Program-made: the position numbers and the translations under genes
Part shown: one piece after another, positions 10,786 to 15,929 of the stretch
How the letters are laid out: each line of letters starts with the position of its first letter
Numbering within the stretch: position 1 is the stretch's first letter
The notes under the pieces: generated by a model
Seen by the model: only the letters and a program-made list of their open reading frames with translations
Told to the model about the DNA's origin: nothing
Database searches by the model: none
Virus genome (UHGV): UHGV-0169021
DNA from: a virus
Reading direction: 5' to 3' (one strand)
DNA: 17,190 nt

Positions 10786-11112
10786 GTGGCTGACTGGCAA
10801 ATTCCAATCATCATTCTTGCCGGAACTTCGCTGGTTGCTGGCTTTATCCTGCTGAAGAAGCATAAAGACCGTGATCAAAAAGTCGAAGTTCTCTATGGGT
10901 ATCCAGCGAACAGCACAACATGGCTGACCATTTACCACTACCGAAAATCAGGCCGCTGGGTATTCGAATGGGATGATCTGTTCGCTGAAAAGCGACCAAA
11001 GTCATGGGGAGACATCAGCGAATGCATGATGTTTGAAGAAAGAAAATCCGGCGCAACTCGAGAAGAGTTTAACGAAGCGTGGAGGCGATTAAGTGAGAGA
11101 GGGTATCAATGA
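10786..11112 (+). CDS. Membrane-anchored hypothetical protein (108 aa)
   Basis: GTG start preceded by GGAGAGGG; N-terminal hydrophobic segment IPIIILAGTSLVAGFILL; no family recognised. Confidence 0.5.
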   Translation: MADWQIPIIILAGTSLVAGFILLKKHKDRDQKVEVLYGYPANSTTWLTIYHYRKSGRWVFEWDDLFAEKRPKSWGDISECMMFEERKSGATREEFNEAWRRLSERGYQ

Positions 11113-11345
11113 GCAGAATTAAATCTGGTTATCCAGGAAATGGGGAATACCCGAAGCCATATTTACCTGTAACAGTGACCACTAAATCTAGGCATCCACA
11201 TCATTTCAAGCAAAGTGGTACAGCTTATTGGAGTGGCAACCGGTGGATAGGTATTGATGGGTTCAAAATTGGGTATGCAAAGGTAATTAAATGGGAATTT
11301 AACATCACACACTGGAGTTCATCCCATGAGGAAACTAACGTTTGA
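11109..11345 (+). CDS. Hypothetical protein (78 aa)
   Basis: ATG overlaps the upstream stop (ATGA); Gly/Trp/His-rich product; no family recognised. Confidence 0.45.
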   Translation: MSRIKSGYPGNGEYPKPYLPVTVTTKSRHPHHFKQSGTAYWSGNRWIGIDGFKIGYAKVIKWEFNITHWSSSHEETNV

Positions 11346-11766
11346 ACTAAGAAGCCCCATCCATCAGCAGAACGCCATTCAAGCCATCCAGAAAATCCTT
11401 CCGGACCCAACCAAACCAATCGTAGTAACCATTCAGGAGCGCAACCGCAGCTTAGACCAAAATCGGAAGCTTTGGGCTTGCCTTGGCGACGTTTCGCGTC
11501 AGGTTGAATGGCATGGTCGCTGGCTGGATGCAGAAAGCTGGAAGTGCGTTTTTACCGCAGCCTTAAAGCAGCAGGACGTTGTTCCTAACCTTACCGGGAA
11601 TGGCTTTGTGGTAATAGGCCAGTCAACCAGCAGGATGCGTGTAAGCGAATTTGCGGAGCTATTAGAGCTTATACAGGCATTCGGTACAGAGCGTGGCGTT
11701 AAGTGGTCAGACGAAGCGCGACTGGCTCTGGAGTGGAAAGCGCGATGGGGAGACAGGGCAGCATGA
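11326..11766 (+). CDS. ninB: NinB (Orf-family recombination mediator)
   Basis: 146 aa, [68 protein letters not shown]...; near-identical to lambda NinB as I recall it. Confidence 0.85.
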
Positions 11767-11939
11767 GACGACAGCGACGAAGTTTCACCGACATCATCTG
11801 CGAAAACTGCAAATACCTTCCAACGAAACGCTCCAGAAATAAACGCAAGCCAATCCCGAAAGAATCTGACGTAAAAACCTTCAATTACACGGCTCACCTG
11901 TGGGATATCCGGTGGCTAAGACATCGTGCGAGGAAATGA
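11763..11939 (+). CDS. ninD: NinD-like small protein
   Basis: 58 aa, [51 protein letters not shown]...; ATG overlaps the ninB stop (ATGA). Confidence 0.7.
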
Positions 11940-12319
11940 CAATGGATTATTCACAGTTAAGTGATTTTGAAATTAACGTGGCAGTATTCGAAGCCATTCA
12001 TAACGGATCACCGGATTACAAAGAAGGTGAGAATGGCGCGATGGTGTTTATCTCATTTGAGGGAGACATTGTAAACGGAGACGCAGTTGAAGTAGAAGTT
12101 GAGCGCGGATCCTTTAACCCATGCGCAAACCCAGCAGACGCATGGCCGATTATCACTGAAAACAACATCAGCATAATTTTAGACAATCCCTCAATGCCGT
12201 GCGCTACAGACAACGCAAGGGACTTGTTTGATGATGCCGGACCGAATGTTGGTGTCGCATATGACAATCCACTCCGTGCCGCCATGATTGTCTTTCTCAT
12301 GATGCGGAGAATCCAATAA
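11936..12319 (+). CDS. nin-region hypothetical protein (possibly DUF2591-like)
   Basis: ATG at 11936 overlaps the ninD stop; product [34 protein letters not shown]...; the track start at 11900 lies inside ninD. Confidence 0.55.
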
Positions 12320-12495
12320 TGCTTAGCCCATCCCAATCCCTTCAATACCAGAAAGAAAGCGTCGAGCGAGCTTTAACGTGCGCTAACTGCGGTCAGAAGC
12401 TGCATGTGCTGGAAGTTCACGTGTGCTCCGATTGCTGCGCAGAACTGATGAGCGATCCGAATAGCTCAATGTACGAGGAAGAAGACGATGAATGA
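12319..12495 (+). CDS. ninF: NinF-like small Cys-rich protein
   Basis: Not in the ORF track. 58 aa, [58 protein letters not shown]; matches my recollection of lambda NinF. Confidence 0.75.
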   Translation: MLSPSQSLQYQKESVERALTCANCGQKLHVLEVHVCSDCCAELMSDPNSSMYEEEDDE

Positions 12496-12955
12496 GTTAA
12501 TAAATGGCAATGCCATCAAAATGACAAGCATTGAAATCGCTGAGTTGGTTGGTAAGCGTCATGACAATGTGAAACGTACCATAATAAAAAACGGGATAAA
12601 GCACGATATTAAATATGAATATTATGAAAATAATCTAGGATTCAAAGTTAAGCGAGAGGTTTTTGTTGTTGATGCTGATGTTGCTAACGTGTTTAAGCAT
12701 CAGAGAATAGCATTAAATAGATGTGCTGAAACAATAGCATTAACCACCATCGAACAATTACAAGGAGTTAAATTAATAAGGCAATATCCGGTTTTAGATA
12801 AATACCGCATAGATGGCTATGATCCTGTAAACAATATCGCCTATGAAATAGACGAGGAACAACATTTTGCGCCTCAGCATATGGACGCGGATCGCATTCG
12901 CGAGGAAGAGATAAAATCGGCGTTAGGTTGTAAGTTTGTGCGCATTCGCGTTTAA
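12488..12955 (+). CDS. Fusion protein: Rha-type N-terminal domain plus DUF559 (Vsr-like PD-(D/E)xK) endonuclease-fold domain
   Basis: N-terminus IKMTSIEIAELVGKRHDNVKRTI (Rha-like); C-terminus RQYPVLDKYRIDGYDPVNNIAYEIDEEQHF...DADRIREEEIKSALGCKFVRIRV fits the DUF559 pattern as I recall it. The gene is visibly AT-rich relative to its neighbours. Confidence 0.65.
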   Translation: MNELINGNAIKMTSIEIAELVGKRHDNVKRTIIKNGIKHDIKYEYYENNLGFKVKREVFVVDADVANVFKHQRIALNRCAETIALTTIEQLQGVKLIRQYPVLDKYRIDGYDPVNNIAYEIDEEQHFAPQHMDADRIREEEIKSALGCKFVRIRV

Positions 12956-12986
12956 GCGAATACAATTTGCAAACCGGAGAATAGCA

Positions 12987-13712
12987 ATGAGTAATTTAAT
13001 TTGTTTTGATTCCGTTAAGATGTCCAGTATCGAAATTGCCGAACTGGTAGAAAGCCGCCATAGCAATGTAAAAGTATCCATAGATAGATTGGTGAAACGT
13101 GGAGTTATCAAGCCTCCTGCATTGCAGCACACTAACATAATCAATGATTTAGGTGTTATTACCGGGAGGCGTGATTTCTACGTCTTCGAAGGCGAACAAG
13201 GTAAGCGCGACAGCATTATTGTCGTTGCCCAGTTGTCGCCGGAATTCACCGCTCGTCTTGTTGACCGTTGGCGAGAGCTTGAAGAAGCTGCGGTTAATAT
13301 CCCCAAAACGCTACCGGAAGCGTTGCGCCTTGCTGCTGACCTTGCTGAGCAGAAAATGCAACTGGAAAACCAGCTCGCAATTGCCGCACCTAAAGTTGAG
13401 TTTGCCGATCGCGTTGGCGAGGCCAGCGGAATTTTGATTGGAAACTTTGCAAAGGTTGTTGGAATTGGTCCAAACAAACTGTTTGCGTGGATGCGCGATC
13501 ACAAAATCCTTATTGCTTCAGGTTCCCGGCGCAATGTGCCAATGCAGGAATATATGGATCGCGGCTATTTCACAGTGAAAGAAACAGCGGTCAACACAAA
13601 TCACGGAATACAGATATCGTTCACCACAAAAATCACCGGTCGTGGTCAACAGTGGCTGACCAGAAAGCTGCTCGATAACGGAATGCTGAAAGTAACAGGG
13701 GAGGCTGCTTAA
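12987..13712 (+). CDS. Rha-family phage regulatory protein / antirepressor-like (Rha-N plus KilA-C domain)
   Basis: The track start at 12936 is non-ATG; ATG at 12987 follows GGAGAA. N-terminus MSNLICFDSVKMSSIEIAELVESRHSNV; C-terminal ...RNVPMQEYMDRGYFTVKE... looks KilA-C-like. Confidence 0.7.
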   Translation: MSNLICFDSVKMSSIEIAELVESRHSNVKVSIDRLVKRGVIKPPALQHTNIINDLGVITGRRDFYVFEGEQGKRDSIIVVAQLSPEFTARLVDRWRELEEAAVNIPKTLPEALRLAADLAEQKMQLENQLAIAAPKVEFADRVGEASGILIGNFAKVVGIGPNKLFAWMRDHKILIASGSRRNVPMQEYMDRGYFTVKETAVNTNHGIQISFTTKITGRGQQWLTRKLLDNGMLKVTGEAA

Positions 13713-14002
13713 TGGCTAACCTACGCAAAGAAGCGCGCGGCAGAGAATGTCAGGTACGTATTTACGGCGTATGCAATGGCAACCCTGAAACTACAGTTCT
13801 GGCACATTACCGGATGGCTGGAATTTGCGGAACGGGAATGAAGCCTGACGACCTGATCGGCGCATGGGCTTGTAGCGCGTGTCACGATGAAATCGACCGA
13901 CGCACCCATAATCTCGACAACAAAGACGCCAGACTTTATCACCTCGAAGGCGTGATCAGGACGCAGGCGATACTGCTGAAGGAGGGGAAGATTAAGCCAT
14001 GA
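13712..14002 (+). CDS. Cys/His-rich nin-region protein (DUF1364-like)
   Basis: 96 aa, MANLRKEARGRECQVRIYGVCNGNPETTVLAHYR...CSACHDEIDRR; ATG overlaps the upstream stop (TAATG). Confidence 0.6.
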   Translation: MANLRKEARGRECQVRIYGVCNGNPETTVLAHYRMAGICGTGMKPDDLIGAWACSACHDEIDRRTHNLDNKDARLYHLEGVIRTQAILLKEGKIKP

Positions 14003-15251: not shown

Positions 15252-15927
15252 CAGATTTATATCCGTTCACATTCTTTCAGCTTTTACCCACCTCATCTTT
15301 AAGTTCTAAGCGCACTGACATGCGCATCATAAACTCGAGAGCACATAGGAATAGAGCCTGAGAAATATCGCTTTTGGCGACTTCTCTCGTGGTGATATTT
15401 CTATGTCAGCAGGCTCTAATATCTATGTGGTTCGCCTATGTTAAAACGTGAAGATGCATTGAGACTTTTTAATTACAATCCAGATACTGGAATTCTTACA
15501 TGGAAGAATCCACCTCGGTCCTCTAGATTTATCTATGGCGCTGTTGTTGGCTATAAAACAAATGGATATCTGCAGGTAAAACTTTATGGAATGCGGCTAT
15601 ATGTCCATAGAATTGCATGGCTGATGGTTTACAATGATTGGCCAACCGATGTTATTGACCATATTAATGGTGATAGGTCTGATAACCGGATAGCCAATCT
15701 TCGTGTTGTTACTAACACTCAAAACTCATGGAACAGCAAGATGAGGAAAAACAATTCATCTGGTGTGAAGGGGGTGACTTTTAATTCTGCTGCAAACAAG
15801 TGGGTTGGAAGAATTAGAGTTAATGGTAAAAGGATTCATGTAGGGTGTTTTGACGATATCGAGGAGGCTAGAAAGGCAATGGAAAATGCCAGGATAAAAT
15901 ATCATGGTGAATTCTCCAGTATGGGAT
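15252..15927 (+). mobile_element. AT-rich inserted cassette carrying an HNH endonuclease gene within the PR'-tR' leader
   Basis: Lambda-like PR' sequence stops after AGAATGG (15245..15251) and resumes at AGATGGGTTAATTCGC (15928 onward); the intervening roughly 680 bp is AT-rich and flanked by the imperfect direct repeat AGAATGG / AGATGGG. Boundaries approximate. Confidence 0.5.
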
Positions 15928-15929
15928 AG
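15438..15929 (+). CDS. HNH homing-type endonuclease with AP2-like DNA-binding domain
   Basis: 163 aa; HNH motif VIDHINGDRSDNRIANLRVVTNTQNSWN; AP2-like SGVKGVTFNSAANKWVGRIRVNGKRIHVGCFDDIEEARKA. Confidence 0.8.
   Translation: MLKREDALRLFNYNPDTGILTWKNPPRSSRFIYGAVVGYKTNGYLQVKLYGMRLYVHRIAWLMVYNDWPTDVIDHINGDRSDNRIANLRVVTNTQNSWNSKMRKNNSSGVKGVTFNSAANKWVGRIRVNGKRIHVGCFDDIEEARKAMENARIKYHGEFSSMG

What the first reader, a model, noticed from the sequence alone, without database searches (positions are those of the whole stretch)
12488..13712. AT-rich Rha-N/DUF559 endonuclease-fold fusion next to a Rha/KilA-C paralogue
Two adjacent genes begin with related Rha-type N-terminal domains (IKMTSIEIAELVGKRHDNV versus VKMSSIEIAELVESRHSNV) but carry different C-terminal modules. 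The first has a DUF559/Vsr-like nuclease-fold signature and is conspicuously AT-rich relative to the flanking nin genes; the second has a KilA-C antirepressor-type domain. An Rha-N plus nuclease-fold architecture is not one I recognise as characterised, and the nin region is a known hotspot for defence and counter-defence cargo.
Basis: partly seen in the sequence, partly recalled or inferred. Interest (0 to 1): 0.55.

Follow-up and report, generated by a model that had tools for sequence, protein, structure and literature searches.

The report
Homing-type nuclease gene splitting phage roi
A small, AT-rich phage gene joins a Rha-type DNA-binding domain to a Vsr/DUF559-type nuclease; it looks like a selfish homing-endonuclease cassette that entered the start of the lambdoid gene roi and brought a replacement start for it, and RefSeq annotates it as a pseudogene stub.

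Summary
ORF1 (12488-12955, 155 aa) has a Rha-type winged-helix N domain and a C-terminal Vsr/DUF559-fold nuclease with every conserved acidic and histidine residue intact. It is the lowest-GC stretch of the window (GC 0.37). The next gene is Roi (true start 12987, Rha-N + KilAC).

- **Mosaic structure.** The first 96 nt of ORF1 are the 5' end of an HK620-type roi. A block of about 470-500 bp (12551/12584-13049) is missing from HK97 and HK620. It carries the rest of ORF1, a new ribosome-binding site and a nucleotide-diverged substitute for roi codons 1-21.
- **Rarity.** Only 5 of 5426 complete E. coli genomes have the block, and PGAP calls only a 96-nt pseudogene there.
- **Same logic elsewhere.** Phage mEp044 has a Bro-N/KilAC gene split in the same way. 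One T4-like Krischvirus carries a homologue in the interval after gene 32; a relative has that interval empty and another has an HNH-type endonuclease there.

Best reading: a free-standing homing endonuclease of the Vsr-like (EDxHD/DUF559) kind with an antirepressor-type DNA-binding domain. This is a new variant of a known kind. No cleavage or homing was tested.

The parts
12319..12495 (+). ninF; its stop codon overlaps the ORF1 start by 8 nt, which implies translational coupling
   Evidence: Pfam NinF E 8e-14. The overlap ATGAATGA is read directly from the sequence. HK97 has the same 8-nt overlap between ninF and roi.
12488..12955 (+). ORF1, 155 aa: Rha-type winged-helix DNA-binding domain plus a C-terminal Vsr/DUF559-fold nuclease; the putative free-standing homing endonuclease
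12488..12583 (+). Captured 5' end of an HK620-type roi (codons 1-32, including the helix-turn-helix). This is the stretch PGAP annotates as a Rha-family pseudogene fragment in the matching E. coli genomes.
   Evidence: 2 differences in 96 nt against HK620 roi, then 21 differences in the next 33 nt. The closest native relatives (P0002-P0009, 145 aa) start at the Met that equals M12 of ORF1. PGAP annotation seen.
12551..13049 (+). Block absent from HK97-type phages (measured against HK620-type phages it starts at 12584): the rest of ORF1, the spacer and the substitute roi 5' end; the mobile cassette
   Evidence: HK97 matches 12353-12583 and 13009-13900 only. The block is present in only 5 of 5426 E. 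coli genomes, always complete. In phage genomes only mEp044 has a related block (82% identity over 12733-13045).
12518..12673 (+). Winged helix-turn-helix (residues 11-62: strand, helix 14-21, helix 25-34, strands 40-47 and 53-62)
   Evidence: AlphaFold secondary structure; Phage_pRha and PHROG anti-repressor/Rha matches; winged-helix hits in Foldseek.
12680..12763 (+). Long helix (residues 65-92). Its C-terminal part holds the conserved motif E81-x3-L85-x-T-I-E89-Q90, the first helix of the nuclease domain.
   Evidence: E81, L85 and E89 are at least 90% conserved in 150 relatives.
12776..12952 (+). Nuclease core (residues 97-155, strand-strand-strand-helix-strand) with D109, E120, D122, H126, D135 and R138
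12956..12986 (+). 31-nt spacer carried by the cassette, with a new ribosome-binding site (GGAG 12976-12979) for roi
   Evidence: Sequence. The same spacer follows the nuclease gene in native relatives L022 and L007.
12987..13049 (+). Substitute roi 5' end (codons 1-21). It encodes a similar peptide (MSNLICFDSVKMSSIEIAELV) with a strongly diverged nucleotide sequence.
   Evidence: 22 of 63 nt differ from HK97 roi (7 synonymous and 1 non-synonymous codon changes in KMxSIEIAELV), against 15 of 663 nt afterwards. It is found only together with the nuclease gene.
12987..13712 (+). roi (241 aa, Rha-N + KilAC antirepressor-type DNA-binding protein), intact
   Evidence: Pfam ANT E 1e-32; PHROG 63 E 3e-91; about 96-98% nt identity to HK97 roi from nt 64 onward and high identity to HK022 roi.

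Best explanation
ORF1 is a free-standing homing-endonuclease-type gene. Its catalytic domain belongs to the Vsr/DUF559/I-Bth0305I ('EDxHD') branch of the PD-(D/E)XK nucleases. Its DNA-binding module is a Rha-type winged helix instead of the NUMOD repeats of the characterised member.

Shown:
- The gene is a promoter-less cassette, in the same orientation as its neighbours, inside the delayed-early nin operon.
- It sits within what is one roi gene in HK620-type and HK97-type phages.
- It uses roi's original ninF-coupled start and first 32 codons as its own N terminus.
- It carries a spacer, a new ribosome-binding site and a substitute, nucleotide-diverged copy of roi codons 1-21, so roi stays intact.

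Inferred:
- During lytic growth or co-infection the protein binds through its winged helix and cuts a related phage or prophage genome that lacks the cassette, in or near the 5' part of roi.
- Recombinational repair then copies the cassette from the carrier genome, with crossovers in the roi 5' end or ninF on the left and in the roi body on the right.
- The carrier is protected because the target is interrupted or recoded.

The native form of the unit, [Rha-N-nuclease]-spacer-[roi-like gene], lives in mEp044-like phages. The nin-region copy arose by recombination through Rha-N and roi homology.

For: 2. Fusion partners. The same nuclease domain is always C-terminal. Among the 150 best relatives it is fused to NUMOD3 (10), homing-endonuclease-associated repeats (5) and an I-HmuI NUMOD-like domain (1), as well as to Rha (42), Bro-N (12), AntA (4) and KilA-N (3).

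3. Sporadic presence at exact sites. The block is in 5 of 5426 E. coli genomes and the domain in 27 of 50,697 phage genomes. Of 64 matching phage records (mostly Krischvirus), only vB_ESM-pEJ01 has the homologue in the interval after gene 32. PHB13 has that site empty, and Phi1 has a 460-aa HNH-type endonuclease there.

4. Cassette logic seen three times.
- In the window, roi is split and healed.
- In mEp044 versus mEp554, one Bro-N/KilAC gene is split. The Bro-N 5' part (90% identity) is fused to the nuclease, and the KilAC part (92% identity) is given a new Rha-N domain.
- In pEJ01 the insert uses the resident promoter and ribosome-binding site and supplies a new -10 box and ribosome-binding site for the downstream gene.
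Promoter-less cassettes, embedded signals for the downstream gene and gene splitting are described hallmarks of free-standing homing endonuclease genes in T4-type phages (PMC2988022).

5. No promoter-like or terminator-like site flanks ORF1.

6. AT-rich composition.

7. BFVD structural matches include phage proteins named homing endonuclease, group I intron protein and NUMOD3.
Against: - No cleavage, target site or biased inheritance has been shown for any Rha-, Bro- or AntA-fused member.
- Lambdoid phages are mosaics anyway, so sharp presence/absence boundaries inside genes do not on their own prove homing.
- ORF1's own Pfam scores are below the curated cut-offs.
- The roi 5' sequence 12488-12550 is retained in the carrier genome, so a target lying wholly inside it would not be protected.
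- HK97-type roi could equally be a deletion product of a window-type arrangement, so the direction of the event is not settled.
- In some relatives (L006, L008, L025) the gene is not followed by a roi-like gene.
- The nuclease could be a domesticated competitor-directed weapon rather than a self-propagating element.
Confidence: 0.6

Rival explanations
1. A competitor-directed chimeric nuclease like ICP1 Odn, domesticated rather than selfish. ORF1 carries the helix-turn-helix of an HK620-type Roi fused to a homing-endonuclease-type nuclease. It would bind the DNA site that such Roi proteins recognise and destroy rival lambdoid phages or prophages. The carrier would be safe because its own roi is of the HK97/HK022 type.
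For: ORF1 residues 1-32, including the predicted recognition helix 25-34, are those of HK620 Roi. The co-resident Roi differs there (GKRHDNVKRTI versus ESRHSNVKVSI). Odn is a documented precedent in which a DNA-binding domain copied from a rival is fused to a homing-endonuclease-type nuclease (PMC8263062). The fusion partners of this nuclease (Rha, Bro-N, AntA, KilA-N, ORF6N) are the N-domains typical of phage antirepressor-type proteins. From memory of Clerget and Boccard 1996, which the library does not hold: Roi binds a site inside its own gene.
Against: The motif KRHDNVKR.I is close to the general Rha-family consensus and is already present in native relatives such as P0002 and P0005, so the identity may only mark a recombination joint. 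The T4-like homologue has no Rha-type neighbour. Nothing here shows which DNA is bound. The Roi binding site could not be checked.
Confidence: 0.17
2. Anti-phage defence or superinfection-exclusion cargo of the prophage: a nuclease that protects the lysogen from incoming phages.
For: The nin region often carries accessory genes (general knowledge). PADLOC matches the nuclease core to mREase_II at E 1e-8. PvuRts1I and AbaSI share the EIDE.HH motif.
Against: The PADLOC match covers only residues 106-155, that is 50 of 294 profile positions, and the modified-base-reading domain is absent. ORF1 has no promoter-like site and is translationally coupled to ninF in the delayed-early operon, so by standard lambdoid regulation it should be silent in a lysogen. 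Homologues sit in a virulent T4-like phage.
Confidence: 0.1
3. A recombination scar with no function: a roi 5' fragment that happens to read through into foreign AT-rich DNA. This is the view implied by PGAP's 96-nt pseudogene call.
For: PGAP annotates only nt 1-96 as an incomplete Rha-family gene and leaves the rest unannotated in IR53017 and VTB97022v.
Against: The 155-codon frame is intact in the window and in both E. coli copies inspected, IR53017 and VTB97022v, and its 90%-identity cluster holds 56 sequences. Full-length homologues reach down to about 40% identity, with invariant catalytic residues. The model is confident in both domains.
Confidence: 0.04
4. A Rha-family transcription regulator whose C-terminal domain is a non-catalytic dimerisation or DNA-binding module.
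For: Source annotations call many members 'Rha family transcriptional regulator'. PHROG matches fall in the transcription-regulation category.
Against: Those names and matches rest on the N domain only. The acidic and histidine residues of the nuclease site are invariant or nearly so across 150 divergent relatives, which is not expected for a dead domain.
Confidence: 0.04

Closest known systems
I-Bth0305I and the 'EDxHD' (Vsr-like) homing endonuclease family, including phage U5 Hef
   Different: ORF1's DNA-binding module is a Rha-type winged helix (Bro-N, AntA or KilA-N in relatives), not NUMOD. It is not in an intron or intein. It lies in a temperate lambdoid phage, fused in frame to the start of the gene it interrupts. 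No direct sequence comparison with I-Bth0305I or Hef was possible here.
Free-standing homing endonucleases of T4-type phages (Seg and Mob proteins)
   Same: Small AT-rich genes, sporadic among relatives. They are promoter-less cassettes in the orientation of their neighbours, with expression signals for the downstream gene embedded in or carried by the cassette. Some split a host gene (PMC2988022). A homologue of ORF1 occupies such a variable site after gene 32 in one Krischvirus.
   Different: Seg and Mob enzymes use GIY-YIG or HNH catalytic domains. In the known gene-splitting cases the two halves must reassemble. Here the split gene is repaired with a substitute N-terminal segment, and the displaced segment becomes part of the nuclease.
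ICP1 Odn (Gp88), origin-directed chimeric nuclease
   Same: It is a chimera of a DNA-binding domain that matches a DNA-binding protein of another genetic element and a homing-endonuclease-type nuclease domain (PMC8263062).
   Different: Odn uses a T5orf172/GIY-YIG domain and a RepA_N domain, and it is shown to cleave the satellite's origin. For ORF1 the target is unknown, and the shared N-terminal stretch may only be a recombination joint.
DUF559 (PF04480) / Vsr / PvuRts1I-AbaSI nuclease domains
   Same: Same fold and same core motif (Y-E-I-D-E-x-x-H ... D-x-x-R).
   Different: Vsr is a mismatch-repair nickase with a zinc site. PvuRts1I and AbaSI add an SRA-like reader of modified cytosine. 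Most DUF559 proteins are bacterial and uncharacterised. None has a Rha-type N domain in the characterised examples.
HK022/HK97 Roi (Rha-N + KilAC DNA-binding protein)
   Same: The second gene is roi: 15 differences in 663 nt against HK97 roi from nt 64 onward. ORF1 shares roi's first 32 codons (HK620-type allele) and a homologous winged helix.
   Different: ORF1 lacks KilAC and has a nuclease instead. The window's roi has a replaced 5' end.

Membership tests
Pfam Phage_pRha (PF09669), for ORF1 | Score at or above the gathering cut-off (29.9 bits) over the Rha domain | tested here: inconclusive
   ORF1 scores 24.5 bits, matching only profile positions 1-24 of 91. Homologue P0072 scores 34.6 bits, and 42 of 150 relatives match. 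The model shows a winged helix-turn-helix at residues 11-62. BLASTP to the Roi N domain gives E 2e-9.
Pfam DUF559 (PF04480) / Vsr-like PD-(D/E)XK | Score at or above the gathering cut-off (20.6 bits) | tested here: inconclusive
   ORF1 scores 19.1 bits, E 1.2e-3. P0072 scores 23.5 bits. 77 of 150 relatives match DUF559 at E 1e-3 or better.
Pfam DUF559 (PF04480) / Vsr-like PD-(D/E)XK | Vsr-type alpha/beta nuclease fold | tested here: met
Pfam DUF559 (PF04480) / Vsr-like PD-(D/E)XK | Conserved catalytic acidic and histidine residues | tested here: met
   E120 and H126 are invariant, and D109, D122, E81 and E89 at least 90% conserved, in 150 relatives. All are present in ORF1.
EDxHD homing endonucleases (I-Bth0305I type) | C-terminal Vsr-homologous catalytic domain with the composite E-D-x-H-D residues | tested here: inconclusive
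   Structural match to 3r3p. Candidate equivalents are E81 or E89, D109, E120 or D122, H126 and D135, with H-to-D spacing of 9 as in H213 to D222. The equivalence is inferred from spacing, not from a residue-level superposition or a sequence alignment, because the I-Bth0305I sequence could not be retrieved.
EDxHD homing endonucleases (I-Bth0305I type) | N-terminal NUMOD-type DNA-binding repeats | tested here: not met
   ORF1 has a Rha-type winged helix instead. NUMOD3 is present in 10 of 150 relatives that share the nuclease domain.
Homing endonuclease (functional class) | Sporadic presence or absence at a defined site among close relatives | tested here: met
   Window block in 5 of 5426 E. 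coli genomes. pEJ01 carries the homologue while PHB13 has the site empty and Phi1 has another endonuclease there. mEp044 carries the block and mEp554 does not.
Homing endonuclease (functional class) | Site-specific double-strand cleavage of the cassette-less allele and super-Mendelian inheritance | not testable with these tools
   This needs enzyme assays and phage crosses.
Roi / KilAC antirepressor-type proteins (second gene) | KilAC (PF03374) domain above cut-off and orthology to HK022/HK97 roi | tested here: met
   ANT scores 113.2 bits against a 25.3 cut-off. 15 differences in 663 nt against HK97 roi after nt 63. The position between ninF and ybcO is as in HK97.
PvuRts1I/AbaSI-type modification-dependent restriction enzymes (PADLOC mREase_II) | Vsr-like nuclease plus an SRA-like modified-cytosine-binding domain (about 290-320 aa) | tested here: not met
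   The match covers only ORF1 residues 106-155, profile positions 53-102 of 294. ORF1 is 155 aa with a winged-helix N domain and has no second C-terminal domain.

The most novel reading that the evidence does not exclude
This nuclease family may be a specialised parasite, or weapon, of phage antirepressor-type genes. It repeatedly acquires the same kinds of N-terminal DNA-binding domain as those genes (Rha-N, Bro-N, AntA, KilA-N, ORF6N). It enters them by recombination within that domain and turns the displaced gene start into its own DNA-recognition module. It also delivers a recoded replacement start for the host gene. Its target specificity would then be borrowed from the regulator it invades, for example the Roi binding site in roi. 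That would be an Odn-like 'specificity by capture' mechanism operating between competing temperate phages.
Probability: 0.2. Interest if true: 0.75.

Novelty: new variant of a known kind. Interest (0 to 1): 0.52.

Why it matters
Homing endonucleases are well studied in T4-type phages, introns and inteins, but little in temperate lambdoid phages.

- If ORF1 is active, it defines a Vsr-like homing-endonuclease subfamily whose DNA-recognition modules are the Rha, Bro-N, AntA and KilA-N domains of antirepressor-type proteins.
- It would help explain why roi and ant loci are such mosaic hotspots. HK97/HK022-type roi may itself be a footprint of this cassette.
- It shows a way for a selfish gene to split a host gene without harming it, by supplying a substitute start.
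- It would give a set of compact two-domain nucleases with swappable recognition domains.
- It exposes an annotation error: RefSeq calls the gene a 96-nt pseudogene in the inspected E. coli genomes that carry it.

Tried and rejected
- **Curated libraries.** NCBIfam has no model above cut-off. PHROGs match only the N domain, and no PHROG covers the nuclease. PADLOC gives only a domain-level match. I therefore rejected filing ORF1 as a known defence system.
- **Selection test.** dN/dS among ORF1 orthologues was abandoned because there are only 1-2 nt differences.
- **Promoter and terminator scan.** Nothing above the shuffled expectation and nothing flanking ORF1. I used this only as weak evidence for a promoter-less cassette.
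- **Papers not held.** Clerget and Boccard 1996 on Roi could not be read, and other papers citing it do not describe the binding site. The statement that Roi binds inside its own gene is from memory. Iyer et al. 2002 on Bro-N/KilA-N domain shuffling could not be read either.
- **I-Bth0305I sequence.** I tried to fetch it from phage 0305phi8-36, but it was not in the 100-150 kb stretch examined, and the paper's supplements are not held. No direct profile comparison was made.
- **segG site.** I considered that the Krischvirus site was the T4 segG site and rejected this. segG lies between genes 32 and 59, whereas the homologue lies on the other side of gene 32.
- **Strict linkage to roi.** I considered strict linkage of the nuclease to a downstream roi-like gene and rejected it. 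L006, L008 and L025 have an unrelated 63-aa ORF there.
Full report
**What is there**

The window is the early region of a lambdoid prophage. Around the finding the genes run NinB (11326-11766), NinX (11900-12319), NinF (12319-12495), ORF1 (12488-12955), Roi (12987-13712), YbcO/DUF1364 (13712-14002), RusA, NinH and Q. ORF1 is a 155-codon frame whose ATG overlaps the ninF stop by 8 nt. The second gene was given as 12936-13712 from a TTG. Its real start is the ATG at 12987, preceded by GGAG at 12976-12979. It is roi. The Pfam KilAC domain scores E 1e-32. PHROG 63 scores E 3e-91. From nt 64 onward it differs from HK97 roi at only 15 of 663 nt.

**Checking the observation**

- The two N termini are related (41% identity over 66 residues, E 2e-9).
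- ORF1 is the most AT-rich stretch of the window. GC is 0.368 and GC3 0.34, against 0.46-0.53 and 0.46-0.57 for the flanking nin genes. The lowest-GC 372-bp window of the 17 kb starts at 12479.
- ORF1's own Pfam hits are below the curated cut-offs: Phage_pRha 24.5 bits against 29.9, covering profile positions 1-24 only, and DUF559 19.1 bits against 20.6.
- The homologue P0072 passes both cut-offs. Of the 150 best relatives, 77 match DUF559 and 42 match Phage_pRha.
- An AlphaFold model built on 33 homologues has pLDDT 87.8. It shows a winged helix-turn-helix (residues 11-62), a long helix (65-92) and an alpha/beta nuclease core (97-154).
- Steczkiewicz et al. place Vsr, DUF559, 1cw0, 3hrl and 3r3p in one PD-(D/E)XK group (PMC3424549).

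**The mosaic**

Comparison with other phages shows that the two genes are not simple paralogues.

- In HK97 and about 1800 E. coli genomes, ninF is followed directly by roi.
- HK97 matches the window at 12353-12583 and again from 13009 onward.
- In the three-way alignment, HK97 roi nt 1-63 equals ORF1 nt 1-63 (1 difference), and from nt 64 it equals the window's roi.
- HK620-type roi (HK620, HK75, N7, H-19B and several Stx phages) equals ORF1 over nt 1-96 (2 differences). After that, 21 of the next 33 nt differ.
- The window's own roi differs from HK97 roi at 22 of its first 63 nt. Within the conserved peptide KMxSIEIAELV there are 7 synonymous codon changes and 1 non-synonymous change. It differs at only 15 of the following 663 nt.

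The window therefore carries a block, 12551-13049 measured against HK97 or 12584-13049 against HK620. The block holds the rest of ORF1, a 31-nt spacer with a ribosome-binding site, and a recoded substitute for roi codons 1-21. ORF1's first 32 codons are roi's original start. The closest native relatives of ORF1 (P0002-P0009, 145 aa, 69-76% identity) begin at the Met that corresponds to M12 of ORF1.

The block, including the substitute roi start, occurs in only 5 of 5426 complete E. coli genomes, always complete. In the two copies inspected, PGAP annotates the first 96 nt as an incomplete 'Rha family transcriptional regulator' pseudogene and leaves the rest unannotated. The 155-codon frame is nevertheless intact there, with 0 and 1 amino-acid changes.

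**Where the cassette comes from**

In mEp044-like phages, the slot between the O-like replication gene and a 372-aa gene holds the native arrangement: a 145-aa Rha-N-nuclease gene, the same spacer, and a roi-like gene whose 5' end resembles the window's substitute start. Identity is 70-90% over the nuclease, spacer and roi 5' end.

Phage mEp044 has a Bro-N version of the nuclease gene. Its DNA matches the window at 82% over exactly 12733-13045, which is the nuclease domain, the spacer and the roi start.

Its relative mEp554 has a single Bro-N/KilAC gene at that place. In mEp044 that gene is split:

- The first 218 nt (90% identity) continue into a diverged remainder of Bro-N plus the nuclease domain.
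- A new Rha-N domain is supplied to the KilAC part, which is 92% identical from L004 position 4062 onward.

This is the same logic as in the window. The resident antirepressor-type gene is cut in two, the upstream piece becomes the head of the nuclease, and the downstream piece receives a replacement head.

**Evidence that the nuclease is of the homing type**

- *Search with the nuclease domain alone.* Residues 77-155 were run against 1.84 billion cluster representatives. The search found 1184 proteins at E 1e-3 or better and 150 at E 1e-10 or better, nearly always with the domain at the extreme C terminus.
- *N-terminal partners.* In the top 150 these are Rha (42), Bro-N (12), NUMOD3 (10), homing-endonuclease-associated repeats (5), AntA (4), KilA-N (3), ORF6N (1) and an I-HmuI NUMOD-like domain (1). 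P0239, P0242 and P0247 are examples with tandem NUMOD3 repeats.
- *Comparison with the characterised family.* NUMOD or helix-turn-helix repeats followed by a C-terminal Vsr-like domain is the architecture of I-Bth0305I and the 'EDxHD' family, which also includes phage Hef (PMC3239194).
- *Conserved residues.* E120, H126, R138 and C148 are invariant across the 150. E81, E89, D109, D122 and E123 are at least 90% conserved. D135 is at least 90% conserved in the 33-sequence set. The H126-to-D135 spacing equals H213-to-D222 in I-Bth0305I.
- *Rarity in phages.* Only 27 of 50,697 phage genomes carry the domain.
- *A T4-like carrier.* One of the 27 is the Krischvirus vB_ESM-pEJ01, where a 145-aa Rha-N-nuclease (44% identical to ORF1) lies just after gene 32. 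Among 64 matching phage records it is the only carrier. PHB13 has a 126-nt empty intergenic site, and Phi1 has a 460-aa HNH-type endonuclease there.
- *Expression signals in pEJ01.* The insert uses the resident promoter and ribosome-binding site. It carries a second -10 box and ribosome-binding site for the downstream gene, overlapping its own stop codon.
- *Described hallmarks.* The review of T4 mobile elements describes free-standing homing endonuclease genes as promoter-less cassettes in the orientation of their neighbours. They have downstream-gene signals embedded in them and sometimes split host genes (PMC2988022).
- *ORF1 itself.* It has no promoter-like or terminator-like site next to it.
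- *Viral structure library.* BFVD matches include proteins named homing endonuclease, group I intron protein and NUMOD3, plus Bro-N proteins of giant viruses and entomopoxviruses.

**Mechanism proposed**

Shown: the anatomy of the cassette, its junctions, its sporadic distribution, the fold and the conserved active-site residues.

Inferred:

1. ORF1 is made with the nin genes during lytic growth.
2. It binds DNA through its winged helix.
3. It cuts a cassette-less relative in or near the 5' part of roi.
4. It is copied in by recombinational repair, with crossovers in the Rha-N/roi 5' homology on the left and the roi body on the right.
5. The recoded roi start and the interruption protect the carrier.

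The direction of the HK97 relationship is open. HK97-type roi may be the ancestral empty site. It may instead be a footprint left when the nuclease gene was deleted between the two in-register 'IEIAELV' repeats.

**Rivals**

- An Odn-like, competitor-directed nuclease that borrows Roi's recognition helix is attractive. ORF1 has the HK620-type helix while the resident Roi has the HK97 type, and there is a precedent (PMC8263062). However, the shared motif is near the Rha consensus and is already present in native relatives. The Roi binding site could not be checked because the paper is not held.
- A lysogen-protecting defence gene is unlikely. There is no promoter, the gene sits in the delayed-early operon, the PADLOC match covers only the nuclease core, and a virulent phage carries a homologue.
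- The pseudogene reading and the non-catalytic regulator reading are contradicted by conservation.

**Comparison and novelty**

The nuclease domain belongs with DUF559, Vsr and I-Bth0305I. The gene behaves like the free-standing homing endonucleases of T4-type phages. Three things differ from anything I could find described:

- the antirepressor-type DNA-binding heads (Rha, Bro-N, AntA, KilA-N);
- the setting in temperate lambdoid phages;
- the 'split and heal' insertion, in which the displaced gene start becomes part of the nuclease and a substitute start is delivered.

I rate it a new variant of a known kind, of moderate interest. No enzymatic or genetic test exists yet.

Noticed in passing
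window 15438-15929 (+): A 163-aa ORF downstream of Q with HNH_3 (E 6e-17) and AP2 (E 5e-8) domains and low GC (0.39). It looks like a second free-standing HNH-type homing endonuclease in the same prophage.
   Followed up: partly
L001 6188-6283 and L003 2136-2231 (E. coli IR53017 and VTB97022v): RefSeq/PGAP annotates only the first 96 nt of the ORF1 orthologue, as an incomplete 'Rha family transcriptional regulator' pseudogene, and leaves about 370 nt of intact coding sequence unannotated. This is a systematic annotation miss caused by the roi-derived start.
   Followed up: yes
L003 2635-3656 (E. coli VTB97022v): In this carrier roi has been split a second time. The Rha-N part ends in a stop after 83 codons, and a different N-terminal domain (starting MNAVIIANAEIVPIEFNGERVV) is fused to the KilAC part. 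This gives three consecutive ORFs that each start with a DNA-binding-type head.
   Followed up: partly
L002 1636-2361 (HK97 roi); the same in HK022, mEpX1 and mEpX2: HK97/HK022-type roi is itself a chimera. Nt 1-63 are HK620-type and the rest matches the roi that travels with the nuclease cassette. It may be a footprint of past cassette loss.
   Followed up: partly
L025 1102-2919, L007 6329-6823, L015/L016 about 2252-2849: Other endonuclease genes (HNH_3, 164-605 aa) sit next to or near the Rha-N-nuclease genes in mEp044-like phages and between genes 59 and 32 in some Krischvirus contigs. These slots collect several nuclease genes.
   Followed up: no
L009-L012 3087-4483: In another E. coli prophage type, the 160-aa Rha-N-nuclease (P0055) lies directly downstream of a 275-289-aa Rha-domain protein whose N-terminal domain varies between contigs while its C-terminal part is constant, close to the terminase gene.
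   Followed up: no
window 11109-11345 (+): A 78-aa ORF between the primase/helicase-like gene and ninB also has low GC (0.405, GC3 0.35). It was not examined.
   Followed up: no
BFVD matches to model m2ad60bbcbc9d: Bro-N plus DUF559-like proteins of giant viruses (Terrestrivirus, moumouvirus, Orpheovirus) and entomopoxvirus 'ALI motif' proteins (MSV026, AMV257) match the model. The head-plus-Vsr-like-nuclease design may therefore extend to eukaryotic DNA viruses.
   Followed up: no
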